From Asterionella formosa (Eukaryota), in NCBI GenBank assembly GCA_002256025.1, contig NKIB01015260.1, positions 1-36,935 on the forward strand: 36,935 bases of DNA. The letters run 5' to 3'. The notes beneath the pieces are model-generated. The model saw nothing but the letters and a program-made list of their open reading frames with translations. It was not told where the DNA came from and made no database searches. Positions 1-36,935 of this stretch are shown here, in pieces; the stretch's first letter is position 1; every line of letters begins with the position of its first letter. A program made the position numbers and the translations under genes.

Positions 1-603
1 TGATGCTGCCCTGCAAAAGTGTAAAACGTAAAGTAATAAGAAAATAATTTTTGTAGTATTAACGGAGTAAAAATAAACACGGTTTGGGGGGAAAATATAT
101 ACATGTACAGATAGAAAAATATGCACTGTAAGCCACCGCTATGCAATAATCTTAGTGACTTTGGAAAAATTATTTCTTCATGGCTAGATACACTGAATCA
201 AAACTGATTCCTTAATAGTATAGCAGAGAGCATTGTCTAACATAAGCTTTGTACTTGCGTCAAGTTTTGATCGTTGAATTACATAAATATTTTTAGTCGA
301 AAGAAAGAGTAAAATAGCGTTTAAGTGGTAGTGTAAATATGACATATATGTACATACATATCAGGTAGTCCTACCTGGCTACCAGTGCAACATGCAACGT
401 ACGAATGGATGTACCGGTATCTTATGATTGCTTTGGTCCGTCTGACGTATGTGCACTACCGGTATGGCTGATATATACCGAGTACCGGTAAGCAAATGCA
501 AGAAAAAATTAAATGTTTATCGGCACGATTCAATACATCAATACACAGCATCCCCAAAGCTTTTGCTTCGTTCCATTGTTTGTTCTTGTTGTAGCCTTTC
601 GCG

Positions 604-5822: not shown

Positions 5823-6304
5823 GGCAAATTTTGGTTTTCAGATGGAGGGTAATGAAAAATAATGCGTGATCGTTCTTGTTTTATTTTGTTTGAATGGGAC
5901 TTGTGGCACTCCACTTGTTGCACATGTATCAGCCATAGTACGAACAACAGCGAGAAAATACAGTCATATATCTAGAAACCAAAGAAGGCGAAAATGAGAA
6001 CCAAATCTCGTTGTGACTATCTAATCAGACAAGACTAATCAAAAAGACTTTAAAAGACTCAAACTTCAACGGTCCTGCATACACTTCATTTGGACCTACG
6101 CAACAATGCATGGAGTAAATTCAAAAATAACGGCTGATCGGTGATTACAAGCGTGCTGAGTCAAAATAATCATGACCAAACGACTCAGAAAATACGAAAG
6201 CTGCACTGTGCAAGTGGATGTCGTAGTGGTTTTACACGATTAGAATGTTCAGCGAGGTCTTTACCGGTGGGTCGATGTATGAAATATTCGCTTTTTAGGA
6301 TCCC

Positions 6305-7056
6305 AACTACGGGTACCCTGGTACCAGTACCGGCAACGTCATTCCAGGTCCCGCTTTCTTTTTATCAGACATGGGATTGTACCCTTGTACCTGGTAATTG
6401 CAACGTGGTACTCCACTCAAGGGAAAAGAGACCTACATGACAGCATTCTTCCGTTGCTACCGGTAGATGGATTCCATGCCCATTCCTCGGCCAACGTGTT
6501 ATTAAGGCGGAGGCAAAGAATGATTCAACAATCCTGTATTCTAATATATCGGTAGCAAACAACATATTTTATGTATGGATACATAACCGTTTTTGTTTTA
6601 TCCAAGTTTTATGAACCAGTACCGTTAACCTACCGTTATGTCGGAAAACGGAGAAAAAGAAATATCCACAGAATACAAGGTAGTAGTACCCTGGTACTGG
6701 TACCAGGTACCGTAGATACACAAGCGTCACAGGTATTATCATCATTTAAAAATTTGTTCTTTTCACCTACGCTAACAAATTATCGGTCCCAGGTACCGGT
6801 ACCTACCGGTACTACAATGAATGAATATACCGGTAGGTACCTGGTACCAGGTACCTGGTACCTGCACTGCCTTGCCTAGAAAACGATGAGGACGAATACA
6901 TTCAAATAAATACTGGCATATTATTATAAAGAGTACTTTATTCATCTACAGCTATGGACCGGTATCCAAGCTCATAAAGGTACGTACGGTAGTCGGAGTG
7001 GTGGAGTGACTCAGCATGGACCAAGAATCAATCGACGAGTACAGGTACCTGGTACT
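6305..7056. repeat. GTAC-rich palindromic cluster (TA-CCGG-TA / TA-CCWGG-TA concatemers)
   Basis: TACCGGTA at 6458, 6794, 6804, 6828; TACCTGGTACCAGGTACCTGGTA at 6838-6860; TACCAGGTA at 6701; TACCTGGTA at 6388 and 7046. Confidence 0.85.
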
Positions 7057-7159
7057 AGCTTTTCAAAAATGCAAATTGAAGAACGCTCCAATAAAGAACT
7101 GTGCGAGTGCACCTCCGACGTCTCGTATTGTAATAAGTCTGTAAGATGAAATGATTTTC

Positions 7160-9392
7160 TCAGATTGGACTGAGGACGCAAATGCTTCCGTCACAGTTGG
7201 ATGTTTTGGTATATCCTCTTCTCAGCATACGAGTTAGAACGTCACGGAAATCATTCAACCACAGCAGATTATCAAAAGTGTCTGATGGAACAGAGGCGAT
7301 CAGACGAGGTGAGTATGGTGCAGGATGCAAGATTCGACAGCCGAAATGGAGACAACTTCTGCCGCATGTACTTACAATCAATGGCAAATTGGATGGATAA
7401 ATTGTTAGCAGGACAGGCTCCACTCTTTCTGAATTTGCAACTGACTTTTCCATTTTGATCCATATTACTGGAGTCCAATAGACGAACCAAAGCGATGTCA
7501 ACGTTTAGCATAACAATCTTTATTCCGTTTGGAAATCCCACCCAGATATTACGATCAGGAATACCATTTGGATTGTTAAGCTCAACACCTCTCTGCCAGC
7601 CAGGAGCTTGGTTAACATGAATGTCCAGAGATTGGCTTGCACTGGTCCCGCCGATCAATTCGGCGTAGTACCCTAAATGAGAAGAACTAGAATGAGGTCA
7701 CATTGCGAATGGCCACAACGACACAACGAAACAAGAAACCAAGCGTACCATTGTCAAAAACATTATTTTTAAGCAGCCACCCGTTAGGTGCATCCACTCC
7801 ACTGTTTTCCTTCCTGAGGCGTCCAATGGTGTGCGCGCCCATAATTGCAACAGTTTCCTTAATGCTAAACCCGAATTCTTTGTCGAAGAAGCTGAAAAGA
7901 TCACGGGAAGGAGTATTCATTCCTGGGAGATGTCTATCAGGTCCAAGAGTTTCACTGCAAGCCTGCTGAGCTCCAGCAGCGTTGCGGCAGATTGTGTTAG
8001 CGTCTTCGCAGTTGACTCGTCCAACAGAATCCAAGTTAAAATCAATGCGTTGGCTTGGTTGCATCACATCAACTCCCACAACTGCTGCCAGTGCCCATAC
8101 ATCTGCACGAGTGAAACCTTTTTTAGCATGCTTAGACACAACAGGTCGTAATGCTTCAATAGGAACGAGCAATCCGAAGTTGTCTGGGTTGGTCAAATCT
8201 ACACATCCGTCACAACCACCGACGCAATCATGAAACATGAGACGAAGAAATTTTGCTGCAAGTTTTTTATCACCACCTTGACCTATGATGATATCTTCGA
8301 GATCTAATCTGGCAGCGCTGACTGCGGCAGATATGGTACCTCCGCCACTTGACCTGCTTGATTTAACACTGAAGGTCTCAGTTTTTGCTATGGGGACAAA
8401 CCCACCATTTCCATTCCTCACATTGTTCCTTAAGAGGTACGCTTGCCACGAGCCAGCCGCTAATGGCCATTCACTTCCTGTCCAGCTAGTACCGGAACGG
8501 ATGATGACTGTGCCTGATGAAGGCTGTTATATTTTTAAAAGAGAATGTGATGGTCAGAATAGTCCGTTAGGAATATATAAATTGAGTGAATGTGACTCAC
8601 CGATGAGCCGCAAGTTTGCGATCCACATGACCAAACCCACAAAGCACCCTGTTGCAAATTGTTGATGCTGATAGATGAAGGATATACTCCAATCCAATCT
8701 CCCTGTGTAGGGCTTCCATTTTTGAAAGTGATTTCAATCTGCTCGCCAACTGTGTAGGAACTTTTGTTTGTCGTTGCGAAAGTAGACGATTTCGTCGGAG
8801 CTCGGGTGGGAGCCTTTACCGGGGCTCGTGTGGAGGGCCTTGCAGTAGGCGCTCGTGTGGAAGGCCTTGCAGTAGGTGCTCGTGTGGAAGACCTTGCTGT
8901 AGGCGCTCTGGTAGGAGACCTGACTGGAGTACGGGTTGGGGACCTGACAGGAGTCCCTGTAGGGACTATAACAGGGGTGGTGGAAGGACTACCACAAGTC
9001 CAACGAACCTCAAAAGTCGACGACTGAGCCAAAGCAGTGTATGGTGCTCCATCTGATTCGTCGTGAACGAGAACCATTTTCCATGATCCGATCTGCAATT
9101 TGTCTCGATACGTTATGGTGCCAAAACTTATGGCAGAAGAACTTGTGCAGTTGCGACTTCCACAAGTCCTGAGCCAATTATTGTCAGACGGAGACGGCAA
9201 CGCACTAGGAACACTGGGATGATAAATGCCTATCCAGTCAAGGGGCTGAGGATTGTTACCCTGAAACATGATAGAAATGTCTTCGTTAATGGTGAAACAG
9301 CTTTTTTTAACTCGAATCGAGTCTGCTTTGGCAGTTACAAAGCATACGCAAAGGGAAATCATAAGGTGAGAGATCCTATTTGACGAAACCAT
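7160..9392 (-). CDS. Secreted heme peroxidase with two Ig/FN3-like modules and a long Pro/Thr/Arg linker; paralog 2, 661 aa
   Basis: Exons 9392-8601, 8523-7749, 7672-7376, 7281-7160 (1986 nt, in frame, TGA stop). Introns of 77, 76 and 94 nt at the same positions as in paralog 1. Motifs KFLRLMFHDCVGGCDGC, PDNFGL, MGAHTIG, GWLLKNNVFDNGYY, MLNVDIAL. Confidence 0.92.
8793..8968 (-). repeat. Coding tandem repeat in the paralog 2 linker (27-nt STRAPTARP and 24-nt PTRTPVRS-type units)
   Basis: Repeated gctcgtgtgga(g/a)g(g/a)ccttgc(a/t)gtagg units; translation PTGTPVRSPTRTPVRSPTRAPTARSSTRAPTARPSTRAPTARPSTRAPVKAPTRAPT. Confidence 0.9.
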
Positions 9393-9649
9393 GCTGGGAG
9401 TTTCTTCGCAAAAGGGGTTTCGATTTTTTGCTCCAGTTATTGATTATGCAACTATCAGCGGGGATTGGTTCCTTAAAAAGTGACCTACAGCAAAAATGCA
9501 GCATTGACACAGTGGGAAGTGATTCTACTGGCTATATCGATTAATATCCTCGCCGAACTGAAAAGCGACCATCAGTGGACTCCTACATAGGAGAAAAACA
9601 AGACTAAAACATGCAACAGAGCAGGCACGCACATGGCTGTGAATTTCGG

Positions 9650-10290
9650 TATGTACCGGTTTCACTGTAGCAAAAAAACGTGTGTATATCTAAGTAATTC
9701 AAAAGTAACGGCATACCGGTTTTAGAGATGCCATGCATATGATAACAACAAATGTACCGGTTTGATAATCGGAGCATCAAGTCCTGCAAGTACCGCTAAC
9801 ACAGTGTTCAACATAGTCCAAGTCATCCGTATTCACTCGGAGTCGGGCACCAGGTGTACTTGGTACCTGGTACGAAGTGGTGTGTGCACAATTTCAATTT
9901 GTTGCTTAATTGCCTTGATTCGTGCTGTTCGTCGTGCAACGCCTGCCAGGATGGAATATCAGTATCATACCGGTATATGGTTGGTACCCGGTACGAATGT
10001 TGAAACTTCAACCAGCCGTTTCTTTTCTTGGGACTGGTACAGTACCTGGTACTCCGGAGTACGGTACCCTGGTAACGCGTACCTGGGTACCGGTATTTCA
10101 GCAGGTACAGTACCGGTACTGGTACAAACCTCCGAGTACGTGGAGTACAAGCAACCTGGTCCTAGTACCTGGTACTAACCCTGGAACATACAGTCGTGCC
10201 AAATATTCCATCTAGAATCTCTTGAATCTTCGTGGTCAGTCTACCGTTGTGCACTAGGATACCAACCATGTATCAGGTATCAGGTACCAT
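9650..10290. repeat. GTAC-rich palindromic cluster upstream of peroxidase paralog 2
   Basis: TACCGGTA at 9968, 10088, 10111; TACCTGGTA at 9864, 10043, 10166; TACTCCGGAGTA at 10050; TACCCGGTA at 9986. Confidence 0.85.
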
Positions 10291-10542
10291 CATTTTCCCG
10301 AACCGGAATACAGATAAAAGCGAGGAAGGAATCATAATTCAACTGGAAGGTCGTTAATCAGCGAACAAAGCGCACAGGTTGCTCCGTTTTCTGGTCATCG
10401 ATTCGCATGCGAAAAAAGGCAGGTACTGCCCCTGAAATTGTCGAACCCCTAAATTTTACGCCACTCCGATATTCTTTGAATTATTGTTTGTATAAACGTT
10501 AAGCCGTTAGTCATTTTAGTGTCAAATTGAACTTCAAGTCAT

Positions 10543-11100
10543 AAGTCAGTAAGCTGAAGTTATGTAGCAGTCAGCGATTTCATGAGTCGATAGTCAGGAA
10601 ATGAAGTCATCAGTCAGCGAGCGATTTTTTCAAAATTTCTGTGAATCAAGTCAGCAGTCAGCGAAACGAAGTCCACAGTCGGTAGGTAGTTAGCGACTTG
10701 AAGGCAGCATTTTTAAGATACAAATTACATACTGATAGCAAAGTAAAGAAGTAGCAATGACTATTTTCAGTCATCGATGAATATTTATAATAGTTTTTTA
10801 TTACCGGTATATACCTCTGTGTTACTCCCAATAATATGTATGTCATATGCATTGCTTCAGTATCCCACAACGAAAAGATGCATTTCCATTGAACACGATT
10901 CGTACATTGGTAGTTGGTTTCTTACTACCCAGTAGGTTTTTTGAAGTCAGCAAGTTGAAGTTAGCAGTCACTGATTTCATGTCACTAGTCAGCAAAAAAA
11001 GTCAAAAGTTGTGAATATTTCAAATTTTCAGCAAATCAAGTCAGCAGTCAGCAAAATGAAGTCTGCAGTCAGCAAGTTAAAGTTGGTAGTCCTCGGCGAT
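10543..11100. repeat. AGTCAGC-motif array in two imperfect ~155-bp direct copies, probably transposon subterminal repeats
   Basis: 10543-10697 and 10944-11100 share e.g. aatcaagtcagcagtcagc(g/a)aaa(c/t)gaagtc and gatttcatg. A related motif recurs at ~34488-34582. Confidence 0.7.
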
Positions 11101-12511: not shown

Positions 12512-13272
12512 ATTTCAATGGATGGCAGCAGTTGGTATTAGACACAAACCTCGACAAAAGCACTAGAACCTTGTAGATGTTCATGAAAAGCGAGACACTT
12601 TGCTTGGCCTATCGCCCACCAGCCAGTATATACTGCAAAAATGCAAGAAGCACAAGTTGAATGCCCATTTATGGATTCAAGTTTCGCTCAGTAGTGCAAC
12701 AATGTAAAATATTAGAAACCGGAAGTCACATTTCATCTAGCTAATGACAATTTATGGATTCAAGTTTCAGTAGTGCAACAATTTAAAAAATTAGAAACCG
12801 GAAGTCACATTTCATCTAATTACGGTTTTCATTAGCTATACTAGTATTGATTGAGAGGAAGCAATGGTAGAATGGCTGCCAAACGGGCGGGGGCAAACAC
12901 AGAATCTCCTACTAATTTTTCTCCCCAATGATCCCCGACCCTTTTTGAATGTCACTAGCTACAGAAAATTTGGTAGAACAGCCGCCATGATCTGTTGATT
13001 GTTGCTTTATGGTGCCACTGACCGAGACCTCCAGAAATCTCAATTAGTTGCTTGTTTCTTGACTTGAATGCAAAAGGGATCGAAACCAGTGGAAAAATAA
13101 AAAGGGAAGAACTAAAAATGCTCTGCAAACATCAGGACAATTGTGAAAGAGAAATGAAGGTTCTTGGGAGGAGAAGTAAAGGGATAATTGCTTCTGGTCT
13201 TGCGGGAACAAATATAGATCAACCCAAACAATGTTGAAAAATAAGTACCTATGGGAAAAGGAAGCAATGCTT
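12512..13272 (+). mobile_element. Decayed DDE transposase fragment, IS630/Tc1/mariner-like (copy A)
   Basis: Broken-frame peptides GIRHKPRQKH*NLVDVHEKRDTL, NAHLWIQV, GQTQNL..FLPNDP and LVLREQI*INP resemble motifs recalled for diatom/fungal YVDGHE-type transposases. Inverted homologue at 26760-27450. Internal ~70-bp duplication 12667-12739 / 12750-12818. Confidence 0.6.
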
Positions 13273-14099
13273 TCAGCATCATCAATCTATACACAAGCAT
13301 GAGCCACCTGATGTCGTTAATATAGCTACCTCGACTTCATCAATGAAGAAGTCAATGGGTGGAGCATGTGAGGAAAATCGGGGTTGAGGTTTTCTTGACG
13401 CCAACGTGGACCTGCTTGGCTGAACTCCTTGCAGATGAAGGCATTTAGTAACCTGGGCCTGTGAAGCCAAAGGATAAAGAAAAATCTATGACAAGGGTGC
13501 GTGGTGAGACAGTATTTAGGAGGGGGAAGCAAAAGTTATCATACTAGCTGAATGCATTCGAAACTTGTATAGACAATAAATAATGGCATGCCATGGCTGC
13601 TCTTGGCTGACAGCTGCCAAGTCAAGTACAAACACAATGAGGGTGCACAAAAGACAATCCAATTTTAATCGACTGGCTGATACTTAGTTGTGAGACTCAC
13701 CATTCTGCAATGGGGTGGACTTTGATCATTGCTTCGTTCAAAGCACAATCAATTCGAATGCTGTCCAATGAAACAGCCAATGAAAACAATTGTGGCGAAA
13801 AAGGGCAGAACAGATCAAGAGATTTCATAGGAAATAAAAAAACAGGGCATATATGATGCACTGCTTCTTGTGTAGACTAGCTACGTTTGATCATTTCCAT
13901 ATTTCAAACTATACAGGTGCATGGATGACTCCTCCCGCCCTTTCATTAGATATGCAGCCATGTTGCGATAATTCTACAGGACCTATAGCATTGGTAGTCT
14001 GGTGGTTATCATTTCCGCATTATATATACCAGTAGCTAGGAGTCATGTATGCATGCATGCTGCGATACAGGGCGGGGAAAAGGGGTTGCATGCATGAGC

Positions 14100-16040
14100 A
14101 ACTACTCCGGTATAAACTATGATCTTTAATCAATGAATTTTGATTCGTTTATCCTATAACTTTGATCATAACATATTGATCATATGATGAACGGTGTCGT
14201 TGATGAGAAAATGAACAATCAACATTTATTTTCAAGAATCAGGATCAATTGATCTTAAAAATATGATCAAATGATCCAAAAATATGAGCGCATTCAGTTT
14301 TCCGCTGCACTATTGTTGTGATATTTCCATGATAGAAGTAATTACCAGCAATTATACAGCAGTACTACCAGTAGGCCATATGAATTTTGGTCAATATGTC
14401 TATATACATAAATGTATGATTTCGACCATTTGAAAAATTGGTGATGACTCCCGTTTATTAAGGGGCTTAATTAAATCAGCAACTGACTTGTAGTTACAAG
14501 AATTGAAACAGAACAAATTGAAAAGATTCAACAGGTCGTGGAAAACTATGAACTCATCATGCATTGTATATATTTGAATTATGTATAATCAAAATTGATA
14601 TTAGTATACACATGATGTGCCGTATAATGAGTGTGTTTCAAACTATGCAAATGTTCAACTATGTATACATTTAAACTTCTTACAAATCTTTATATATATG
14701 TTTTCATGGCTGAAACATTTGAAATCATGTTTTCATGTTCCTTGTCATGCATACACTTTGCTCCTGAATTGAAGGATTATCACAGATGATGACGCGGAAA
14801 ACGAAAGTGATAATACAACACAATGATACTTGCGGCTTAGAAGAGAAGGGCGGAATCAATTGATAGTAAGTCAAGAGCAAGAGCAAATGCCTTTCATGTT
14901 CCTTGTCATGCTGCATCCACTCCCTGAAATGAAGGATCTCAAGCAACACATGATGCGAAAAACTGAAGTGACAATACAGCACGATAAGAATGAGTGAATA
15001 TGATGTATAAGGGCGGAATCAACAAGTTGTGCATAGCATCACGGTTTGTCAAGAGCAAATGCCAAGATGATCAATTGCTGGGATTAAAAATACGGAATGA
15101 CTCGTCCCCTTTCAGTGATTCAATAGCTCCTTTTCGATTTGGTGGCTGGCCAACCATCAATGTGGACAAAAGAAATCGGTACGTGCTGCCTATCAGCCAT
15201 CTTTGAATCAATCCACAACTGTTAGAAAATCTGACACATATGTGTTGCTTCTTTCAGGATAATGGTAGACAAACAGTATTTGTAAGTTACAAAGAGCAGT
15301 GTTGGAGCCCATTTATTGATCGATACTTTGCTTCTCATTCAATCTTCGACTGACACATTCTTCTACAGAAATATGCATCAGTTACTTCCTCAATTTGTGG
15401 TAAGTGAAGCAAGATAGAAGCGAAATGAATGCTGTTGTGTAAGCAAAACATGAACAGCTAACAATGAATTGCTTCTCTTTGTTAGTATGGCTGATTGGAA
15501 CAACGAAACGGATTCAATAGTAATAGGAAAATGCGTGAATGCAAACTCAGAACAACCCTCAGGAGTAAATGGAACAAAGCAGGGGAACAACGGCAAGGCA
15601 ACCAGTACAACAACCTTCAGAATTGGTTTGGGGGGAAGGTGGAAGTGAAAGCGGCACCAACAATCATTGCAATGAGAGCATTGTAGAAAATTCTGTAGCC
15701 ACTTAAGATATAGAATCATAGAACCATTCTTAGCTAAATATAGTTCTAAATTTCGATCAATTTCATCCTATTTTAGACAGTGATATCGATGAGAATTATG
15801 ATCATGCTAAGATAGATGTATGACAAAAGTATACAAATCATATGACCATGTTTAACTAATTATATGATGCAATGGTATTATAACTATGATAGTCTCATCA
15901 TACTTCAAGCTCGGTAAAAGTTTACTGCATGATCATAACTATATGATACATTGATCATATTTTTGATCGAAAAACTATCATATATGTGAAAATCCTGTGC
16001 CACTTAGCGTACGATACCCTTGATCATATTTTCATGATAT
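14100..16040. mobile_element. Non-autonomous DNA-transposon-like element with TGATCA-rich ends and an internal ~160-bp tandem duplication
   Basis: aaaaatatgatcaa motif at the left end (~14256) and inverted at the right end (~15951-15964). 14252-15325 is repeated at 30144-31214. Internal units ~14731-14890 and ~14891-15063. Boundaries approximate. Confidence 0.55.
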
Positions 16041-16669
16041 TTTTTATTTACAGACAGAGAGTATAGTAACTTACCTATGCTCTCACTGTTGATCTATGGG
16101 TGACAGGGTAGTGTTGTTAACCCTCACATCTGCATATATGGAAGGGAAAGATGTTATTAATGTCGAAATCCTAATTAATGGACACAGACACTACAAAGCC
16201 TCTGCAGCATTGTGCACAAATACATTAAGTGCGGTTTCTTACCTCGTAATTAGGTTGATTTTTATCGTTCGTCCTGAGGAAGTATAGAAACTTTGAGTGG
16301 CAGAAGCGCACACGAACAGCGATACAATTTTATAGTTTGCTTCCGGTCTCACACGGTACCGATCAGAAGCCCCTTGGTAGCCACAGTTGAGAAGCAAAAC
16401 AATCATATAACTTACCTCTTCTCACCGGTTGGTTTGATACCGGTAGAAGGCTCTCCATCACCATTCCCTCATCAGTTTGTTATGTGAAATAGAATGCATT
16501 ACCGGCATGAATTTTTTAACAATATCTCAAAATTTCCTCTTCTTCTTCAAAATGTGTGTATAACTTACATCTCTGTATGTCTAGTAACTTTTTCGAAGGA
16601 ACATTTAATACCCTACCAGTATGTATTATTAGATAAAATATACAAGACTTAACAGGAATTCGAATACCC

Positions 16670-16841: not shown

Positions 16842-19757
16842 ATCTAATGTCTATTACTGAGTATGTCAGTGCTGCATCTCTTCCGATCCAGCATTTGCCC
16901 ACTGTCTAATCCTATAGTTGACAGACCATTATCCCTTTCTGCTTCCTTGTTCTGTTACAGTCACGTTTTTCTTGACAACTTGACATTTGCACGCTATCGA
17001 TACTAGTGCAATATATCACTTCTTATCTGGAATGGCAAATGTTCCGAGTGCTACAAGGAATGGAACGATCTTGGTTGTGAAGGGGACACTAATTGCAGAT
17101 TTTTCAATCAGGAAAAACGTGTTTTCATGGCGTATTTCATGTCTGTTCAAGAGACAATGGAAGAGTAAGGAACGACTCTTACTGTTAGATACTTTGATCA
17201 TGATGACAAAGGCAAGGAGAAGAGACTAGATGTGGGCAGTGTCCTGGATTTTGTTCTCAACAAATTCTATGTGGTCCCAGAGTCTGGCTTGTTTAACAAA
17301 ACATCATTTGAAACTTCAAGGAAATATCGGAATCATATAGGACCAGCGATGATTTTATGGAAAACTCACTTTCCTCGAGATATTAGACTACATCAGAAAG
17401 ACAACAATATGCCACCAAATGCACCCATGAACTACATCCAGACTGGCAACCATGTCCTGCTTCAATATTTCCAACTCCTTACTGAATAAATGGGACAAAT
17501 CACTTTTCTCCTCAACCTGTTCTTTATTTACTTTCCCAATCACTCCTACAATTTCGGAACTCTTTGGTGACAAGTCATGGACTGCTTCTTTCGGATTGGC
17601 AACCATGTCTGGAGTTGCCTTTAATTTACATTTTCTTTTGCTTTGGAAGGGGGAGAGTTTATATCAAGTCTATCAGATTTGATAGACTCAATTAGACGCT
17701 CTGAGGAAGTAGAAACAAGATCTACCACGGGCATACAAGCAACACGATCTTTACTTCTTGGAATGGTATCATTGGGAGAAGATGAACTGGCATCAACTAT
17801 TTCGTTTTCACTCGCCTGTGTCAATGCATAAACGGAGAATACACGACATCGGTGATATTTATTTGGAATGACAGGTATGACAATTCCATCGGCTTGTCAG
17901 GAAAAAATTCCCAATTTTGGCGATGCTTCTCAAATGTGGCCGTAATGGTGCACAGAAGCTTGTTCCTCTCTTCTTCTGTATCAATACCAGCACCAACATT
18001 ATTAGGAAAAATACAGGGATCATTTGAAACGCCCCAATAATGGAGAATTTTATCAACATCATTGGAATCATTTCGACAATCATTGTTGCTGGCTGTATGA
18101 CATTGGAATCAGCTATTGATTGAACAATGGTTCTGGTACCCTCATAAATATTTTACACTTCTTCGGAGTGGCGAGAACATATGTGTGGGACAAGCTAGTA
18201 CACTACATATATATAAGCTATATAAACATAGTGGTCACTTTGTGGAAAGTATATGTGTGGCAATGGGGTTAGGCTGTCCTATATAGTGCCTCTGATGTTG
18301 CCGATAAAGAGATTTCTTAAAACAATGGGACAGTACAATGTTATTAAGCAAAGTTAGGATTGTTATTTCGAACCCCCTGCTATTCAAGGTTCATGTGATG
18401 CTACTATTTGCTTCCTGAATGAAATGAAGCTACTTCCTGATTAGAGATGTTGCGGCTCTAATTTTGCAGCAAACAAACGTGCTCGCCAATAGCTAGTCAA
18501 TGAGAATGGAAGACCCATGGCTAATTAAGGCCATGAGCAACAAACTGCGCCGCCATCTGGTCCATCTTCACTTTGATCCACATCTCATCTTGAAGAACAG
18601 ATTCGAAATACGGATCGATGTTCGCAATGGGCGAATTATGATCAAAAGTTACTTTCTTCTTGATTTCGGTTTAAATTGGAATAGGGTATGGCCTTCAATG
18701 CATCGTTCTCCAATTCTGTCATATAAATTGACCAAAGCTTTTGATTTCGAGTAACAAACAAAAAATCAAACTTTGCCAGCATAAATTCCCATCAATATCG
18801 AGACCATATCATTCGTTATAAGACTGAGATCATCGTCGTCCCCGCAAGAAGGTATCTTGTAAGGGATTCAACGAACGCACATGGCTTGTAAGAAATTCGA
18901 TTAATGATATCATGCGAATTGAGAGATAATGACGAATACTACCGGTACAAGAATTGTATTAAAGCATGTACCGGTAGAGCATTCAAATCAGAATGGCTCA
19001 ATCTTCAGTTTTTGTCACTGTAGCAGCAAAGCGAGCGATAAATCACATGGTTCTGTTATTGTTGTCTACATTTATTTTACATTTTAGCCGTCAATTTCAC
19101 AACAGGAGCATTCTTTTGAACGCATCAGTGAGTTGTGGTGCTGCCTGGTTGTTGCCGGTTTGTTGCTTCAATTCGACTTGCCCGAGGAACAGTTGAATAC
19201 TACTACATGTGTGTGTTACTTTCTGCTGTTGCTAGTTCTAAAATAAGGATTACTGACACACTGTTGTTATGTAAATCTTTGCAGGTCAATGGCGAAGTCA
19301 TTTCAAGGACAAGAAGGAAGCCAGTGTGATGCATTCCTGTTGCAATTTCGCACCATGATGCCTCTTCAAGAATGAATATGTTTTTCATTCAGAATGAATG
19401 GCTCCTGTTTGTCTTGCATTGTCCTTACAGACTTCTCAAAATGCCTGGCTTCTCAAGACTGAAGATGCCATTCTGAAAGAACTGCTTTGTTTGATTGTAT
19501 ATCGAGATTTGTTTCCCATGTAATGTGAAATACCGGTAGCTGAATTAGTAATCAACATATTTGATAGTACTTTTCAATTACGTAAACAAATTTAATACAT
19601 TACATGAACTATATTATAGAATTACGTGAACAAAATTATAAGGCAATGTGAACTAAATTACAGAATTAATTGAAGTATTTCAAATAATTACGTCAAGTAT
19701 TTCAAATAATTATGTGAAGGTGATAACTTAATATAGTGATGATCAGGAATGCATGCA

Positions 19758-20077
19758 TGATACTCTGATCAAATAATTAATGTGATGTATTCAGATAATA
19801 TATAGATATATTCAAGTAAGCATTTTGATGTATTCAACTAATTCATGTGATTCATACAAAATCAACTACCGGTAGGCTTATTTATGTGATGGTCACTTCA
19901 CGTAATACGCGGCTTAGATGTGATACTCTGATCAAATAATTATGGTGATGTATTCAGATAATATATAGATATATTCAAGTAAGCATTTTGATGTATTCAA
20001 CTTATTCATGTGATCCTTTTAAAATCAACTAGGTTTACTTACGTGATGGTCACTTCACGTAATACACGGATTAGATG
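19758..20077. repeat. Head-to-tail tandem duplication (163 + 157 bp) within an AT-rich satellite-like array
   Basis: 19758-19920 and 19921-20077 are near-identical; the only length difference is CCGGTA at 19869-19874. Related ~21-22-bp sub-units (aagtatttcaaataatta) extend back to ~19570. Confidence 0.95.
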
Positions 20078-21690
20078 TATTTTGGAAGCATCAATTGGAG
20101 TTAACAGGTCACCACATTCGAGCGCACCAGGACGCAGAATTGGAATATGAACAATTTTCATGGGAGGCTAAGCTGAATGTGGATTGTGATGCGCTTGCTA
20201 CCTCTGCACAAACATGCATCAAATATAATCACTAAAAGCCAAGCACATATGAACTCCCACCGGATCATCGGGAAACACGACAGATTGGTTCCACATGGGT
20301 GACCAGCCACTTATCAATGGCAATCAAAGAGGCAGTGCATAGATCAGCCATGGTGGATTTTATCATGGCAAGGGCAGGGTGGCTGGGAAGCCCATGAAGT
20401 TTTTAATATGGTAGATTGGGAATCACGAGCCCAAGCAGGCACAAATCAAAGGAAAACAACGTACTAATATCTTCAAACTCGAATTTGAATTTTTTGCAAA
20501 GATGAAGAAGCGAAGAAAATACGAAAAATTCAATGACGGCTGATGTCCCCAGTGTGGGAAATTTAACAACGATTTCGATCATATTCTCAGATGCCCTCAC
20601 ACAAATCAGGCGCAAGCTCAGAGTTGGTTGCATATGATTGAGCCATTCCACGATCAGCACACATGCCCACACATTGTCAATACTTTTGAGAAAGGGCTAC
20701 AACAATGGTTCGCAAACCGTCCTGTCCGTTGGGAAGGCAACAAGATGCCACAGCAAAGCAATAAAATTAGACAAGCAACATTCCAAGCATTTTGAATTCA
20801 ACAGGACATCGGTTGGAACCAGGCAGTGTAGGGAAGGATCACCAGACAATGGGTTATCGCAAATGCCCTGTACTGCAGAGAATGACAGATGTATCATGAC
20901 GCTGCAAGGGACAAACAATGGACTACCCCACTGGTGGTGTCAACACTGTGGCAGTATGGCGTTGCATGCTGGAGTTCTAGGAATCAATGGTTGCACAGAG
21001 AAAACGATGCACAACAGGCGGTCATTATGGAAACCGAAGTGAACACCCTGGTCAAGCATCTGTATGCGATGATAGAGATGATCAACCCACATGATTCAGC
21101 TTTGTTTCTCTTACAAGCAGGTTTACCAAAAACATCACACAGTTGGACAAAAGCTTTTAGGGATTAAAATGGTCAACATCTCCATTCAGGCATGGCATCG
21201 GGAAGGTGGAATTACTCTGAGAGATGGAGCTAGGCTCTGCCTTGCACCACATCAGATTGAAAGACTTGAGGGCCATTCTTGGCCCAGGGTACGGTACAAA
21301 ACTGGGTGGATTTAAATTCCCATCTTGTGTCTCATAGGCCCATGTGCAACTAGATGTTAGGATTTAATGTACTATGAAATGTCATTTAAATCCTAGTAGT
21401 AACTATTTTCATGAATTTGATCTCGCTTGATTATTGGCATGATTGACTAGGGTCTGTTGGGTAACATATAATGTTGATATGTTAACCTCGATTCAACTCA
21501 ATTGTTTCATTAGTTTGACCCATAGAGGGTAGGGTTGTTGAAAAGGCCCATTCTCCTTCCTGTGGGCTGTCTCTTCACGTACTAGGCTCTTACATGCTAG
21601 TGGTACTACCAAGTACCACTTACTTTCTCTTTGCTCTGCTTCTAGCCTTCCTACTAGATAAACTAATTGACCTTCCTGTCAATTAACACA
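20078..21690 (+). mobile_element. 5'-truncated, decayed non-LTR retrotransposon 3' part (RNase H end and CCHC finger; resembles diatom Ambal-type LINEs)
   Basis: HHIRAHQDAELEYEQFSWEAKLNVDCDALA at 20110 (RNase H C-terminal motif); CPQCGKFNNDFDHILRCP at 20544; FQQDIGWNQAV*GRI; LWQYGVACWSSRNQWLH; several stops and frameshifts. The small hairpin taattgac-cttcct-gtcaatta near 21664 is a possible 3' end. Confidence 0.75.
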
Positions 21691-22485: not shown

Positions 22486-24104
22486 CTAGATGCGACGAAG
22501 GAGGCAAATGCTTCCATCACAGTTGGATGTTTTGGTGTATCCCCTTTTCAGCATACGAGATAGAACACCACGGAAGTCGTTTAACCACAGCAAATTGTCA
22601 AATGTGTCTGAAGTAACAGTGATCAGACGAAGTGAGTAAGTGTAGCACAGAAAATTCAAAATCGTCAATGATGACAGCTTCTGTCGCAATTACTTACAAT
22701 CAATGGCGAATTGGATTGATAAATTGTTGACGGGGCAGGCTCCTGTCCTTCGGAAAGTGCAACTGACTCTTCCATTAGAATCCATGTTACTAGAGTCCAA
22801 TAGGCGAACCAAACCAATGTCAATGTTTAGCATAACAATTTTAGTTCCGCCAGGAAATCCCACCCAGATGTTGCGATTGGGGATACCATTTGGGTTGTTA
22901 ACCTCGACCCCTCTCTGCCATCCGGGAGCCTGATTGACATGGACGTCTAGAGATTGGCTAGCACTGGTCCCGCCGATCAACTCATGGTAATACCCTAAAA
23001 AAAGAAAGAAAGGAGATGAAATCACGTTTTGCGAAGAAAATTGAATAAAACACAAGCGTTTCTCGTACCATTGTCAAAGACGGTATTAGCTAGCAGCCAT
23101 CCGTTAGGTCCATCCACTCCACTGTTTTCCTTCCTGAGGCTGCCAATGGTGTGCGCGCCCATAATTGCAACTGTCTCCTTAATGCTGAAACCGAATTCGT
23201 TGCTGAAGAAGCTGAAAAGAGTACGAGAAGGAGTATTCATCCCGGGGATGAATCTGGCTGGTCCACGAATGTCACTGCAGGCTTGCTGGGTGCCAGCTGC
23301 GTTGCGGCAGACAGTGTTGGCGACTTCGCAGTTCACACGTCCGACAGAATCCAAGTTAAAATTGATGCGGCGGTTGCTTGGTTGCATGACATCTACTCCC
23401 ACCACAGCTGCCAATGCCCACACATCTGCACGAGTGAATCCGGCTTTAGCGTGCCTAGATACAACAGGACGTAGAGCTTGGATTGGAACGAGCAATCCAA
23501 AGTTGTCTGGGTCGGTCAAATCGACACACCCGTCGCAACCACCAACGCAGTCATGGAATATGAGCCGAAGAAATTTGGCAGCCAGAGCTTGATTTCCGTT
23601 TTGACCAATAATAATACTCCGAATGTCAGATGTTGCGGCGCTGACTGTTGCAGCTATGGATAGGGACGAACCTGGGCTTGGGGTAGGGACCCTAACAGGG
23701 GTGGGGGCAGGACTACAACTCGAGCGCACCGTGAATGTGGAGGATTGAGCCAAACCAGCATATGGAGCTCCATTTGCTTCGTCATGAGTGAGAACAATCT
23801 TCCATGATCCGGCCGCCAAAGCATTTCGGTATGTTATGGTGCCGGTTTTGATTGGAGTTGAAGTTGTGCAGGAGCGGCCTCCACATGTCCAGAGCCATTG
23901 AATGCCTGAAGGAGAGGGCAGGGCACTAACGGATACGCTGGGATCATAGATCCCTACCCAGTCATCGGTTCGAGGATTGTCTACCTGAAACGTGATGGAG
24001 ATAGCTTCACCAATGGTGAAACAGCTTTTGTTCACCCGAACCGAGTTCGCCTCTGCGGTGACAAGGAAGGACACGCAAAGGCTAATAAAAAGGTAGGAAA
24101 TCAT
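22486..24104 (-). CDS. Secreted heme peroxidase with a single Ig/FN3-like module; paralog 3, 484 aa
   Basis: Exons 24104-23069, 22994-22698, 22607-22486 (1455 nt, in frame, TAG stop). Introns of 74 and 90 nt are homologous to introns 2 and 3 of the other paralogs. Motifs KFLRLIFHDCVGGCDGC, MGAHTIG, GWLLANTVFDNGYY, MLNIDIGL; signal-like MISYLFISLCVSFLVTAEA. Confidence 0.92.
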
Positions 24105-25399
24105 GATCCACTAAATACTCGGTATTTCTTCGGCGCAGATGCTTTTGAAGGAGAGTACCTGGAACGTAAACTCTGCGAGTGTTTAACGGGTATTCTTTGT
24201 TGTTTTTGAATGACTCGATGCAACTATTTAAAGGTGCACGAATCTGTGGTTTGTGTGTGATGAATGAAAAATAATATGATGCAACAAGTAAAAGCAGAGG
24301 AACGATAACGATTTACGGCCACAACAACAATTGGCATCGGTCGGCTCGTTGGCGCTTGTTCTGAAGACTCAGTATTGGCGAATGCAACAAAGACGACTAT
24401 CGTTATGTATGTAGAATTCACAGTTCGCCAGCAAAGTGTACGTGCCGGCGAACAGATATTAAGAAATTTCGAAGGACTGGATTCACATTCCAAGATCTCC
24501 TCAACAATTACTATGTCTGCCCTACTTCCTAAATTTAGTAAAAGCCCATTGTGACCAAATATGTGCATACGGATAAACCATCGCTTCTGGGAAGTGATTT
24601 GCAGTCTTGTGTCAATGAAGTCACACCTGTGGTCGGACATCCATCGCCACTATCGTGTATGTAGGAGCTTACTACGGTGATCTATTGAGGGAAAATTCAT
24701 TAATGATTCTAAGTACCTGGTACGGGTAGGACCGTTAGTTAGAAAATTCTATTTCACGATCTATCTATCACCTTCTCGTCCAGAATACGAAATACCGGAA
24801 TGTTAGTGGAGTGAATTTATGAGCAGCTGCCTGTACGTGCGTACGGGTAGATCGAACAACAAGAACAAATTTTAAAACGGCAAGAGTAGCGTGCGCGCCT
24901 TTCGTACTTACCGGTAAATGAAGCTACCTGCATGTGCATGTTTATATACAGCCACATGCCTGATGCTTGAGGGTCGTTCTTATCATTCCGAATTTGCTGT
25001 ATTATTTCCGGGTTGCGGGCAAAAAGTGACGGTTGGTATCAAAACAGGGTATCAGCAACAATAATTTTGTATCATTGATACAAAAGTGAAACCTTTTTTT
25101 GCCCCCCTCCAAAAACAGTATCAGTGACACTGACATTTTCACGCAGGTATCATTTCCGTTGTCACTAATAAAATAACCGAAAATAAGCCTACAAGGCAAG
25201 GCACCACTAATATTAATGGCATATACTATTCCTTCAATTTTATGCTGCCTGGCTGCATACATCCAAGCAACACTATTGATACAATTATATGGCACCAGAA
25301 AGAAACTCCACTTACTTATATTGGCGATCTTATAACTCCCAAGTGTTTTTGTGTATTTGTTACAACAGATCAGTCATTGGAATCTCCCTGAATATACTA

Positions 25400-26759: not shown

Positions 26760-27450
26760 AAGCATTGCTTTCTTTTCCCGTGGTAGGTACCTATTTGTCA
26801 ATATTGTTGTTTGGGTCAATCTATTCTTGTTCCCGCTACACCAGAAGCAATTATCCCTTTACTTCTCCTCCCAAGAACCTTCATTTCTCTTTCACAATTG
26901 TCCTGATGTTTGCAGAGCATTTTTAGTTCCCTTTTGATTTTCCCACTGGTTTCGATCCCTTTTGCATTCAAGTCAAGAAGCAAGCAACTCATTGAGATTT
27001 CTGGAGATTCTGTCAGTGGCACCATAAAGCAACAATCAACAGATCATGGTGGCTGTTCTCCATTTTTTGTAGCAAGTGACAAAGTGACAATCAAGAAGGG
27101 TCAGGGATCATTGGGGAGAAAAAATAGCAGGATTCTCTGTGTTTGCCCGGCCTGTTTGGCAGATATTCAACCATTGCTTCTTCGCACCAATCAATACTAG
27201 CTGGTTTAGCTAATGAAAACCGTAATTGGATGAAATGTGACTTCCGGTTTCTAATAATTTACATTGTTGCACTACTGAAACTTGAATCCATAAATGGTCA
27301 TTCAACTTGTGCTTCTTGCATTTTTGCAGTATAGACTGGCTGGTGGGCGATAGGCCAAGCAAAGTGTCTCGCTTTTCATGAACATCTACAAGGTACTAGT
27401 GCTTTTGTCGAGGTTTGTGTCTAATACCAACTGCTGCCATCCATTGAAAT
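26760..27450 (-). mobile_element. Decayed IS630/Tc1/mariner-like transposase fragment (copy B, inverted relative to 12512-13272)
   Basis: Reverse complement matches 12512-13272 along its length. ORF-track peptides LDLNAKGIETSGKIKR..LKMLCKHQDNCEREMKVLGRRSKGIIASG occur in both copies. Lacks the 70-bp internal duplication. Confidence 0.65.
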
Positions 27451-30143: not shown

Positions 30144-31336
30144 ATCTTAAAAGTATGATCAAATGATCCTAAACATATGATATTTAGTTTTCGGCTGCAC
30201 TTTTGTGGCATTCCTATGAGAGAAGTTATACCCAGCAAGTATACAGTACTAATGGTAGGCCATATGAATTTTTCGAATGTACATGGTCAATGCGTCTTTA
30301 TTCATAAATGTATGATTTAGACCATTTGAAAAATTGGTGATGACACGATTTATTAAGGGGCTAAATTAAATCAGCAACTGGCTTGTAGGTACAAGAATTG
30401 ACAAAACCAAATTGAAAAAATTCATCAGGTCATGAAAAACTATGAACTCATCATGCATTGTATATGTTTGAATTATGTATGATCAAAATTGATGATGGTA
30501 TACGCAGAATGCGCCATACAATGAGTGTGTTTGAACTATGCAAATGTTCAAATATATATACATTACTAACTTAAAAATCTTTAAGTATGTACTATACATG
30601 GCCGAAACATTTGACATCATGTTTTCATGTTTCTTGTCAAGCATGCACTTCCTGAAATTAATGATCATCACACATGACAAGGAAAGCAAAAGTGATAATG
30701 CAACACAATTATACTTGCGGCTTAGAAGGAGTGAATATCGAGAAGGGCGGAATCAATTGATGGTAAGTCAAGAGCAAATGCCTTTCATGTTGCTTGTCAT
30801 GCATACACTTCCTGAAATGAAGGATCACAAGCAATACATGATGTGAAGAATTGAAGTGACGATACAGAACGATGATACACCATACGGCTAAGAAGGAGTG
30901 AATATGGAGAAGGGCGGAAAATCAACAAGCTGCGCATGGTAGCACATCAAGAGGAAATGCCAGGACTATCAATTGTTGGGATTACAAATACAGAATGACT
31001 CGTCCCCTTTCAGTGATTCAATAGCTCCTCTTGGATTTGGTGGCAAATCATCAATGTGGACAAAAGAAATGGGTAATAAGTGCTATCATCCTTGGATCAA
31101 TCCACAACTGTTAGAAAAACTGACACATGTGTGTTGCTTCTTTCAGGATTATGGTAGACAAAAAGTATCTGTAAGTTACAAACAGCAGTGTTGGAGCCTT
31201 TTTATTGGTTGATAGTTATTCAATGTTATCATACAGATAGGATCAAGGGTATTGTATGCTAAGTGGCACAGGATTTTTACATATATGATAGTTTTTGGAT
31301 CAAAAATTTGATCAATGTATCAAATAATTATGATCA
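30144..31336. repeat. Second, rearranged copy of the 14.1-16.0 kb element
   Basis: 30144-31214 is a direct repeat of 14252-15325, including the internal duplication (~30622-30782 / 30783-30961). ~31226-31336 is the reverse complement of ~15929-16039. Confidence 0.85.
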
Positions 31337-35384: not shown

Positions 35385-36935
35385 CTCTCCCACACTTGAG
35401 GGAAAACCTTTAACATATGAAAAGGTTTGATACGACGAATATTAATTCGTTCGGTAATGTGCATAGTGCGTTGAAAAGTAACTGTACCATTGGCATGTAC
35501 TTGAATGATAGTATAAGGACCTCGTCCACGATCATCCAAAGTAGTAGGATTATCCAATAATATTAAAATCTCGTCACCCACTTTGTAATCATAAGATCGA
35601 CGACGGAAATTAGCACAACGTAAGCGTTCGTCAATTATCGCTTGTCGACGTTGATGTATTAATTGTAAATCTGTAATCAAAGGAATATTTAATATCATAT
35701 CACGTTGAAAAACCCATGCTCCTGGTGAAATACGTAATATACTATGAATAGTAGCTCGAGCTGCATATGACGCAGCTGCAAAACATGTATCCACAATATT
35801 TTGGGCTTGAAATTCATTGATTGGAGGATGAGCCTTTAACATACTAACTCGTAGACTATTGCTGATAGATTGATGTAAACGTTCACAGATAGCATTTGCT
35901 TGTGGATTCTTTACTGTAGTAGTCACATCTTTGATTCCATTCAATACTAACATGTGTAAGAAAGGAGCACCAGTAAATTCACCTCCATTGTCATGTATAC
36001 AGCGTTCTGGACGGGGATATCTGGCTAACCAGTCATTTTCAAATTTCATTGCAATATATTCTGATGTTTTATTGGTGATACGTGAAATTTCTGCTAAATT
36101 GGTGACTGTGTCAATACAAGTTAGAGCACGAAATTTAATCGTTTGAGCAGACACTGTTATCTTCCATGGACCAATTAGATCTACTGCAACTTCTGACCAT
36201 GGTAATAATAATGCATTCCTGGGTGGAAGTTCACCAAAACCAGTACCAGGTAATTTTGTACGTTGACATGCTTCTCATACTCTTACAATATGTTCCACTC
36301 TTGCTTTTAATGTAGGGTGATAATAATGTGTAGCAATTGTAGCATTTAATCTTGTCATACCCACATGAGCTAACATCTGATGATACCAATTAATAATAGG
36401 ATCCAATAATGATGTAGGAAAAGCAATACGCCAAGTATCTCCTGGATTCTTCACAAAACATATTAAAAATGTATCCTGAAAATTGATAGAAGGAAATTTT
36501 AATGGATGTGTTTGTTGATTGAGAATCAATTGTATATCCAGCAATTGTCTATCATGTATTAAATGATAATCCAGAGGATATTGAATATTGTCTGTCAACG
36601 TGGGATGATTAAGGAAACATGTAAGCAGAGGTTCATCATCTAATTCAATTGAAAAGGTAGAAGTGGAAGTTGATGTTGGAGATTTCGATCCAATATCAAT
36701 ATCATCCTCCACCAAAGACTCAAGCCTCGGGAGGCGAGAGATGGAATCTGCAATAGCATTGTCAATCCCTTTCACATAGTGAAAAGTAGGATGGTATTCT
36801 TCAATCTTAAGTCTCCATCGTAGAACACGTTGAGTATGTAATGTATTATAAATAAGATTTCGATGATCAGTGTGAACATGTAGAACTGCGCCCAATAACA
36901 TAGAGCGAAATTCTTTGAAAGTTTCTACCACAGAA
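35190..36935 (-). mobile_element. pol: Ty3/gypsy LTR retrotransposon 3' part (RNase H end, integrase HHCC finger, DDE core); pol has an in-frame stop; runs off the window edge
   Basis: HTDHRNL..RVLRWRLKIEEY..YVKGIDNAIADSISRLP; YHQMLAHVG...VRV*EACQ; PWSEVAVDLIGPW; CIHDNGGEF; NPQANAICERLH; GRGPYTI..INIRRIKPF. RNase H precedes integrase (gypsy order). TGA at 36277-36275 is in frame with both ORF parts. Confidence 0.93.

What the first reader, a model, noticed from the sequence alone, without database searches (positions are those of the whole stretch)
19867..20031. Filled versus empty TA site shows TACCGGTA is a 6-bp insertion: window-wide transposon excision footprints
Seen: in the tandem duplication, copy 1 reads caac-TA-CCGG-TA-gg (19867-19874) and copy 2 reads caac-TA-gg (20030-20031); this is the only indel. 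By eye there are at least 17 TACCGGTA (412, 457, 483, 6458, 6794, 6804, 6828, 9968, 10088, 10111, 10802, 16438, 18940, 18969, 19531, 19867, 24909), versus about 0.5 expected at ~40% GC, and none in host exons. There are also at least 13 TACCWGGTA. Known: Tc1/mariner elements duplicate TA and leave TA+end bases+TA on excision (Sleeping Beauty: TA-CAG/CTG-TA). Inference: elements ending CCGG and CCAGG..CCTGG, with 4-5 nt staggered cuts, have scarred this genome at very high frequency. The A/T ambiguity at the centre of CCWGG fits mismatch repair of annealed overhangs.
Basis: partly seen in the sequence, partly recalled or inferred. Interest (0 to 1): 0.78.

Follow-up and report, generated by a model that had tools for sequence, protein, structure and literature searches.

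The report
Transposon exit scars across diatom genome
The short palindrome TACCGGTA, present tens of thousands of times in this diatom's non-coding DNA, arises when six bases are added at a plain TA, and it is most likely the scar left when resident cut-and-paste transposons jump out, a known kind of event seen here on an unusually large scale.

Summary
TACCGGTA occurs 17 times in the window (0.33 expected) and 28,528 times genome-wide (control 1,718); TACCWGGTA occurs 26,886 times (control 902). The site at 19867 lies in a high-copy repeat; all 29 other copies aligned carry the plain TA, so the six bases are a derived insertion. The same insertion recurs in other repeat families (4 of 33 single-copy 6-bp insertions, 0 of 7 deletions). 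The genome holds matching donors: recently active pogo (DDE_1) elements ending TA|CCGT (at least 470 ends), and a divergent Mos1-fold lineage ending TA|CCAG or TA|CCAC (at least 499 ends). Each lineage's target context matches one scar class: broad for CCGG, G-TA-C for CCWGG. The footprint reading holds, but no CCGG- or CCAGG-ended element was found; 2-4-nt overhangs suffice. Not shown: cut positions, an element and its scar at the same site, or scar polymorphism between strains. Scars near genes are about 14-fold denser than the rate in repeats would sustain. This scan had already reported the same reading on other pieces of this genome. Verdict: a known mechanism at unusual scale.

The parts
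19867..19874 (.). Filled site TACCGGTA: TA plus a derived 6-nt insertion; proposed excision scar of a CCG-ended pogo element
   Evidence: plain TA in 29 of 29 paralogous copies, 32 of 32 covering alignments; exact empty 12-mer 31 times and filled 14-mer 0 times in other loci
20030..20031 (.). Empty TA in the second copy of the repeat end
18996..19920 (.). End of a high-copy non-coding TIR repeat (family E) that hosts the scar; it is not the donor element
   Evidence: 608 candidates, 40 scored; alignment to a two-ended 2.9-kb copy in L176
19921..20077 (.). Second copy of the terminal ~160 bp of family E
19531..19538 (.). TACCGGTA at a position where the family already reads TACCGG; inherited, not private. 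Copy L007 carries further TA-bounded insertions here
412..490 (.). Three TACCGGTA upstream of a glycosyltransferase gene
6388..7054 (.). Scar cluster upstream of a peroxidase gene (4 TACCGGTA, 6 TACCWGGTA), including a three-unit chain with mixed A/T centres at 6838-6860
9864..10809 (.). Scar cluster upstream of a second peroxidase paralogue (4 TACCGGTA, 3 TACCWGGTA)
16438..16445 (.). Single TACCGGTA
18940..18976 (.). Two TACCGGTA
24714..24916 (.). One TACCWGGTA and one TACCGGTA upstream of a third peroxidase paralogue
1..330 (-). Damaged end of a CCAC-ended element (lineage H): 1-319 is 93% identical to the end of L181; terminal GTGG|TA at 325-330 after a short deletion
   Evidence: loose ends at 319 carry the missing TIR stretch
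36244..36252 (-). TACCWGGTA that is ordinary coding sequence of a retroelement integrase frame; not a scar

Best explanation
TACCGGTA and TACCWGGTA are excision footprints of resident Tc1/mariner-superfamily (pogo-type) DNA transposons. An element inserts at TA and duplicates it (shown). On excision the transposase leaves a few terminal bases on each flank as 3' overhangs, and end joining seals them (inferred from the known chemistry). Families A, B and D end CCG...CGG: 3-nt overhangs annealed through their CG, or 2-nt overhangs joined whole, give TA-CCGG-TA. Lineage H ends CCAG or CCAC and prefers G-TA-C: overhangs annealed with one central mismatch give TA-CC(A/T)GG-TA. An H scar leaves two G-TA-C sites where there was one, so re-insertion builds chains (inferred). 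In a unicell without a separate germ line every such repair is heritable (own knowledge), so scars outnumber surviving elements by up to about 100 to 1.
For: Polarity: 29 of 29 paralogues empty. Recurrence: 4 of 33 single-copy 6-bp insertions, against about 0.001 expected; 11 distinct TA versus TA-CCGG-TA paralogue pairs; one 7-bp insertion at GG-TA-CC absent from 3 paralogues. CCGG and CCWGG are enriched only between TA and TA, not between the 15 other dinucleotide pairs. Donors: 93 DDE_1 matches; family A has a 421-aa open frame, DDE_1 E 1e-21, and copies 99-100% identical with different flanks; filled and empty site with TA duplicated for family B; 470 CCGT ends (control 24); 499 CCA ends (control 1); a complete 3,532-bp CCAG-ended element with a 779-aa open frame whose model is closest to Mos1, SETMAR and Sleeping Beauty. 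Context match: G before TA at 52 of 58 H ends versus 7 of 37 CCGT ends; at 130 of 197 unchained CCWGG flanks versus 68 of 278 CCGG flanks and 23% of all TA. Minor predicted products are also over-represented: TA-CCG-TA 59 vs 26, TA-CCSGG-TA 7 vs 1.1, TA-CCAGGG-TA 17 vs 0.6. Adjacent CCWGG pairs read AA 5, AT 5, TA 5, TT 5.
Against: No site was found where one copy holds the element and another its scar. Cut positions are not measured. No presence/absence of a TACCGGTA site appears among the gaps listed for 4 runs over window 1-11000 (12 gap rows shown, 10 not shown). In the all-against-all test only 2 of the 11 CCGG pairs and 0 of the 2 CCWGG pairs passed the polarity threshold, and none of 10 seven-base insertions in six AT-rich families was CCWGG. 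The rate in repeats (4 per 253,617 bp at 0.034 substitutions per site) would sustain about 0.6 perfect motifs per 10 kb, but 5'-proximal DNA has 8.0 (arithmetic), so targeting, an earlier burst or selection must be added. The commonest short insertions in the same repeats (XY-C/G-XY, XY-GC-XY) have no donor element found. The H protein has no Pfam match of its own.
Confidence: 0.82

Rival explanations
1. The motifs are transcription-factor sites, kept in promoters by selection; the insertions seen in repeats are a minor neutral source.
For: Density per 10 kb is 8.0 (CCGG) and 8.2 (CCWGG) within 1 kb 5' of long ORFs, against 2.3 and 0.9 in repeats. TACCGGTA is listed as high-confidence promoter motif M94 in Phytophthora infestans (PMC3597505, passage); the sister palindrome TACATGTA is bound by PsMyb37 (PMC11134190, passages), and its footprint origin was considered and rejected (PMC3520976, passage).
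Against: It does not explain exact 6- and 7-bp insertions at TA in non-coding repeats, the match of flanking context to element targets, or the length variants. A pogo element (Passer) itself prefers promoters and enhancers (PMC9976928, passage). Origin as scars and later use as binding sites are compatible.
Confidence: 0.08
2. The insertions come from repair of 2-nt staggered breaks with fill-in and added bases, without an element ever sitting at the site; the same process would make the XY-C/G-XY and XY-GC-XY insertions.
For: Duplication-plus-G/C insertions dominate the spectrum at any dinucleotide: 122 of 174 single-copy 3-bp and 49 of 81 4-bp insertions, and no matching element was found among 8 candidates examined.
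Against: CCGG and CCWGG occur only between TA and TA, equal the terminal bases of resident elements, and follow their target contexts. Fixed 4-5-base fillers are unlikely without a template, and no local template exists at 19867.
Confidence: 0.06
3. For the 7-bp class only: lineage H duplicates the 4-bp target GTAC, its true ends are CAG/CAC, and the scar is a Sleeping-Beauty-like C(A/T)G; or a PIF/Harbinger-type family that duplicates CWG builds the arrays.
For: 11 of 12 two-ended H copies also fit a GTAC duplication; GTAC is the only 4-mer X with X-CWG-X seen 3 or more times (82); among 24 ends not selected by the pattern the two readings cannot be told apart.
Against: One-mismatch variants of the 11-mer are 43 at the outer G against 11-15 at each inner position, so the outer base behaves as a preference rather than part of the duplication. 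The Mos1-like fold argues for TA (established knowledge). A 3-bp duplication outside the G fits 1 of 12 pairs, which excludes CWG duplication for these families only.
Confidence: 0.12
4. Slippage or local template switching produces the palindromes and chains.
For: Motifs are clustered (50% within 50 bp of another, 6% expected) and form short tandem chains.
Against: Half of adjacent CCWGG pairs have different centres; TACCGGTA is never doubled in 397 kb; the inserted bases at 19867 have no neighbouring template.
Confidence: 0.02

Closest known systems
Excision footprints of Tc1/mariner elements (Sleeping Beauty CAG footprint; Tc1 taCATGta; ZB 0-3 bp)
   Same: TA duplication plus terminal bases left by cuts inside the element and sealed by end joining (PMC8151067 passages; PMC7913693 passages; Tc1 footprint as cited in PMC3520976).
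   Different: Here about 55,000 fixed scars (about 0.5% of the assembly) are the most over-represented words of the window, two lineages leave two distinguishable scars, and the fillers are 4 and 5 nt. In rice only 8 of 94 excisions were perfect (PMC4423477 passage).
pogo superfamily: Passer (DD35D), Fot-like, Tc2-type CCGTA ends (the Tc2 likeness is recalled, not tested)
   Same: Families A-D: DDE_1 transposase, short TIRs, TA duplication. Passer leaves 0-4-bp footprints and prefers promoters and enhancers (PMC9976928 passages).
   Different: [quoted passage not shown]
Oomycete promoter motifs M94 TACCGGTA, M93/motif-1 TACATGTA, motif-9 GTACCGGTA, streme-5 ATACCGGTAT
   Same: Same or sister palindromes, abundant upstream of genes in another stramenopile group (PMC3597505, PMC3520976, PMC10031896; passages).
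   Different: Described as transcription-factor sites; their origin by insertion was not tested here.

Membership tests
Tc1/mariner-type excision footprint | Derived insertion at a TA, with the TA duplicated | tested here: met
   one 7-bp case
Tc1/mariner-type excision footprint | Filler equals terminal bases of a resident TA-targeting element | tested here: met
   CCG ends give CCGG; CCA(G) ends give CCWGG
Tc1/mariner-type excision footprint | Flanking context equals the element's target preference | tested here: met
   (52/58 vs 7/37, Fisher P 2e-12)
Tc1/mariner-type excision footprint | Element and scar seen as alleles of one site | tested here: inconclusive
   None among split alignments of the loci held, or in 4 runs over 11 kb; sample small
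Tc1/mariner-type excision footprint | Cut position of the non-transferred strand (overhang length) | not testable with these tools
   Models compared by product counts only
pogo superfamily (families A, B, D) | DDE_1 transposase between TIRs | tested here: met
pogo superfamily (families A, B, D) | TA target-site duplication | tested here: met
   Filled L077 versus empty L063 for family B; TA at all 37 ends is partly built into the search pattern, but boundaries from alignment also begin at TA
Tc1/mariner superfamily (lineage H) | RNase H-type DDD catalytic domain related to mariner | tested here: met
   Three conserved aspartates in 60 homologues; model pLDDT 91.6; best Foldseek hits Mos1 E 9e-5, then SETMAR, Sleeping Beauty
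pogo superfamily (lineage H) | DDE_1 profile match | tested here: inconclusive
   No match for the protein itself; 2 of 60 homologues at E 0.001 or weaker; Atlas neighbours are DDE_1 clusters, 0.93-0.94
Tc1/mariner superfamily (lineage H) | TA rather than GTAC duplication | tested here: inconclusive
   Scar variants favour TA; ends fit both
NuwaI-type PIF/Harbinger (CWG duplication; feature taken from an earlier scan note and recall) | 3-bp CWG duplication flanking the element | tested here: not met
   1 of 12 two-ended H copies
Transcription-factor binding site | Enrichment upstream of genes | tested here: met
Transcription-factor binding site | Position conserved between orthologous or paralogous promoters | tested here: inconclusive
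   Upstream regions of the three peroxidase paralogues do not align; no related genome is held
Transcription-factor binding site | Protein binding or effect on expression | not testable with these tools
   Needs experiment

The most novel reading that the evidence does not exclude
Transposon scars are a main source of promoter sequence in stramenopiles: in this diatom a lineage whose scar renews and doubles its own target writes repeat arrays in front of genes, and the abundant palindromic 'promoter motifs' of oomycetes (TACCGGTA, TACATGTA, one with a known binding protein) began as such scars and were later taken over as regulatory sites.
Probability: 0.25. Interest if true: 0.8.

Novelty: new variant of a known kind. 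Interest (0 to 1): 0.55.

Why it matters
Footprints are normally seen a few at a time in excision assays. Here they would record at least 55,000 past excisions against a few hundred surviving elements, so counts of transposon copies would understate past activity by up to about two orders of magnitude. Because the scars pile up in front of genes, motif finders will report them as regulatory sites; the same words are published as promoter motifs in oomycetes, where a footprint origin was dismissed without an insertion test. That question is now testable by aligning repeat copies. Lineage H is also an unannotated transposase group with a G-TA-C target.

Tried and rejected
Pfam DDE_3 and Transposase_1 searches of the own genome gave no match; the second rang in no control genome and shows nothing. 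No element ending CCGG or CCAGG appeared in TIR scans of the loci held; these cover about 1.4% of the genome at most, so absence is not shown. Family C (CAGT ends) is not the donor: its predicted TA-CAG-TA is only 1.3-fold enriched. Family E hosts the scar but is not its donor. Laying four runs on window 1-11000 showed one 12-nt and one 5-nt insertion and no listed loss of a TACCGGTA; with about 0.2% divergence and only 12 of 22 gap rows shown this is uninformative. A test whether frame-keeping 6-bp scars survive in genes better than 7-bp scars was inconclusive: most of the 15 hits lie before the first methionine or in doubtful frames. TACTGGTA/TACCAGTA (98 vs 15 expected) could be CpG decay of TACCGGTA or a product of CCAG ends; not resolved. 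A search for a G...C-ended element with a 2-bp duplication, to explain the GC-type insertions, failed among 8 candidates. A sequence-profile search of the H alignment against PDB found nothing. Paralogous promoters did not align. More unselected H ends, wanted to separate TA from GTAC duplication, were not obtained, so that point stays open.

Full report
OBSERVATION. The window holds 17 TACCGGTA and 13 TACCWGGTA at the positions given, against 0.33 and 0.30 expected under a second-order Markov model; TACCGGTA is the most over-represented 8-mer. The tandem pair at 19758-20078 differs by one gap, 6 nt at 19867-19874 versus the TA at 20030-20031. No motif lies in 14 host ORF segments of 9,980 bases. 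One TACCWGGTA (36244) is coding sequence of a retroelement integrase frame, shared with a paralogue, and is not a scar. The window is one contig of a 68.4-Mb assembly. Run labels are algal and freshwater and the only named homologues of a resident transposase are from a diatom; I treat the organism as a freshwater diatom. Genome-wide there are 28,528 TACCGGTA (reversed control 1,718) and 26,886 TACCWGGTA (control 902). At 6 and 7 added bases each this is about 0.36 Mb, 0.5% of the assembly.

POLARITY. The focal site lies in the end of a high-copy repeat (608 candidates, 40 scored, 30 loci returned). All 29 other copies aligned have the plain TA; 32 of 32 covering alignments lack the six bases; the empty 12-mer occurs 31 times and the filled form never in the other loci. 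The search ranks by similarity to the filled query, so filled copies would have come first. The long allele is therefore a derived insertion. The motif at 19531 is different: the family already reads TACCGG there.

RECURRENCE. Against the consensus of six repeat families (253,617 aligned bases; two further families left out as near-identical or tandem) I found 554 insertions and 222 deletions. Among single-copy events, 4 of 33 six-base insertions and 0 of 7 six-base deletions are TA-CCGG-TA; a rough chance expectation is 0.001. None of 10 seven-base insertions there was CCWGG. In an all-against-all comparison of about 0.9 Mb, 11 distinct TA versus TA-CCGG-TA pairs and 2 TA versus TA-CCWGG-TA pairs appeared; 2 and 0 passed a strict polarity threshold. 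Direct alignment of one CCWGG case showed the 7 bases absent from three paralogues, at a GG-TA-CC site. In a 397-kb sample (40 stretches from long contigs, chosen by me, not at random) CCGG and CCWGG are enriched only between TA and TA (128 vs 2.9; 124 vs 3.5) and not between other repeated dinucleotides.

DONORS. A DDE_1 search gave 93 matches. Families A, B and D end TA|CCGT, family C ends TA|CAGT. Family A is 2,460 bp with a 421-aa open frame (DDE_1 E 1e-21) and has nine copies 99-100% identical, with different flanks in the eight where a flank is held. Family B has a filled/empty pair with TA duplicated. A pattern for A, B and D ends finds 470 (control 24). A TIR scan then revealed a second lineage, H, ending TA|CCAG or TA|CCAC: 499 ends by one restrictive pattern (control 1), 154 matches to its protein among 149 scored candidates of 618, a complete 3,532-bp copy with a 779-aa open frame, and a subfamily with copies 99% identical. 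The protein has no Pfam match, but three aspartates are conserved in 60 homologues, and its model (pLDDT 91.6) is closest to Mos1, SETMAR and Sleeping Beauty. The window itself begins with a damaged H end (1-330). No element ending CCGG or CCAGG was seen.

TWO SCARS, TWO TARGETS. G precedes the TA at 52 of 58 H ends but at 7 of 37 CCGT ends. The scars follow suit: G at 130 of 197 CCWGG flanks outside chains, 68 of 278 CCGG flanks, and 23% of all TA. TACCWGGTA is G..C-flanked in 73 of 124 cases, TACCGGTA in 11 of 128. So CCGG comes mostly from the CCGT families and CCWGG from H (inference).

MECHANISM. Tc1/mariner transposases cut the non-transferred strand a few bases inside the element, and end joining of the 3' overhangs leaves a footprint (PMC8151067, passages). 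For CCG ends with 3-nt overhangs the predicted products are CCGG (two matched pairs), CCG/CGG and CCSGG; their counts in 434 kb are 145, 64 and 9, all above expectation in the 397-kb sample. A 2-nt overhang joined whole also gives CCGG. For CCAG ends with 4-nt overhangs the products are CCWGG (137), CCAG/CTGG (107) and CCAGGG (20); a 3-nt model gives CCWGG for both CCAG and CCAC ends but not CCAGGG. The overhang lengths are inferred, not measured. An H scar turns one G-TA-C into two, which would build chains; adjacent units have centres AA 5, AT 5, TA 5, TT 5, as expected of independent events and not of slippage. One family C copy carries a 40-nt stack of such units that a paralogue lacks. 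Whether H duplicates TA or GTAC is not settled: 11 of 12 two-ended copies fit both, while scar variants are about three times commoner at the outer G than at inner positions, favouring TA; a CWG duplication fits 1 of 12.

WHAT DOES NOT FIT. No site shows element and scar as alleles. Four runs laid on 1-11000 showed no listed loss of a TACCGGTA; contigs without gaps span 9968, 10088 and 10111, 12 of 22 gap rows were shown, and divergence is only about 0.2%, so the test is weak. Density per 10 kb is 8.0 within 1 kb 5' of long ORFs, 3.5 elsewhere, 2.3 in repeats and 0.67 in ORFs. The rate in repeats (4 events, 0.034 substitutions per site) would sustain about 0.6 per 10 kb (0.2-1.5 on Poisson limits; my arithmetic, and biased low because best-scoring copies were sampled). 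Gene-proximal excess needs promoter targeting, as reported for the pogo element Passer (PMC9976928, passages), an earlier burst, or selective retention. The commonest insertions in the same repeats are a 2-bp duplication around C or G (122 of 174 single-copy 3-bp events) or around GC (49 of 81 4-bp events; CG 1), at any dinucleotide; I found no donor for them.

LITERATURE. Seen as passages only: PMC8151067, PMC7913693, PMC9976928, PMC4423477 (footprints); PMC3597505 lists TACCGGTA as promoter motif M94 in Phytophthora infestans; PMC10031896 reports the like in Plasmopara; PMC3520976 rejects a footprint origin for TACATGTA on grounds of abundance and conservation; PMC11134190 shows a Myb protein binds TACATGTA; PMC11267843 has no ACCGGT in its main text, but its logos and supplements were not seen. 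Nine searches (listings only, at most 30 rows each) showed no paper on genome-wide footprints in a diatom; the library lacks most subscription papers. The likeness to Tc2 ends and the lack of a germ line in diatoms are recalled.

EARLIER NOTES. This scan has reported the same reading on other pieces of this genome and a 7-bp class in another diatom; these are unchecked and are not counted as support. One of them proposed CWG duplication, which I tested for lineage H and did not find.

VERDICT. Real, derived, and best read as excision footprints of two resident Tc1/mariner-superfamily lineages (0.82). The mechanism is known; the scale, the pairing of two scars with two targets, and the overlap with published promoter motifs make it a new variant. 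Interest 0.55.

Noticed in passing
Repeat families F01-F06 (window 12743-16056, 18996-19920; loci L002-L140): The insertion spectrum is dominated by a 2-bp duplication around C or G (3 bp) or around GC (4 bp) at any dinucleotide, far above 1- and 2-bp insertions; no donor element found.
   Followed up: partly
L221:7-3538: Complete CCAG-ended element with a 779-aa open frame, no Pfam match, Mos1-like fold; 264 homologues, the 120 listed all unnamed or hypothetical.
   Followed up: yes
L049:551-596: A 40-nt stack of CCWGG/CCGG units inside a family C copy, absent from paralogue L076.
   Followed up: partly
L190:221-226: Two H elements back to back sharing one TA.
   Followed up: no
L169:232-2702: A 2.47-kb TIR element with an apparent TTA duplication nested in an H MITE; probably PIF/Harbinger-type; many copies genome-wide.
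   Followed up: partly
L147:2464-3432, L149:1384-2601, L068:1669-1915: Short G...C-ended TIR elements with 3-bp duplications (AAT, TCA, ACT), Harbinger-like.
   Followed up: no
window 4239-5837, 7272-9443, 22690-24110 (minus strand): Three paralogous secreted-looking haem peroxidase genes with Pro/Thr-rich linkers; each has a scar cluster upstream, and the upstream regions do not align.
   Followed up: partly
window 35297-36934 (minus strand): RNase H and integrase frames of an LTR retroelement, split by a stop; a close copy lies in L143.
   Followed up: no
window 6432 and 5884: Other samples carry a 12-nt motif-like insertion behind 6432 (X2, X4, X6) and a 5-nt insertion behind 5884 (X4, X7).
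   Followed up: no
L187:854 and L149:9606: TA versus TA-CCG-TA pairs, the Sleeping-Beauty-like 3-nt product expected from CCG ends.
   Followed up: partly
window 12512-13272 and 26760-27450; 14388-15328 and 30284-31217: Further high-copy non-coding repeat families (356 and 539 candidates), type not determined.
   Followed up: partly
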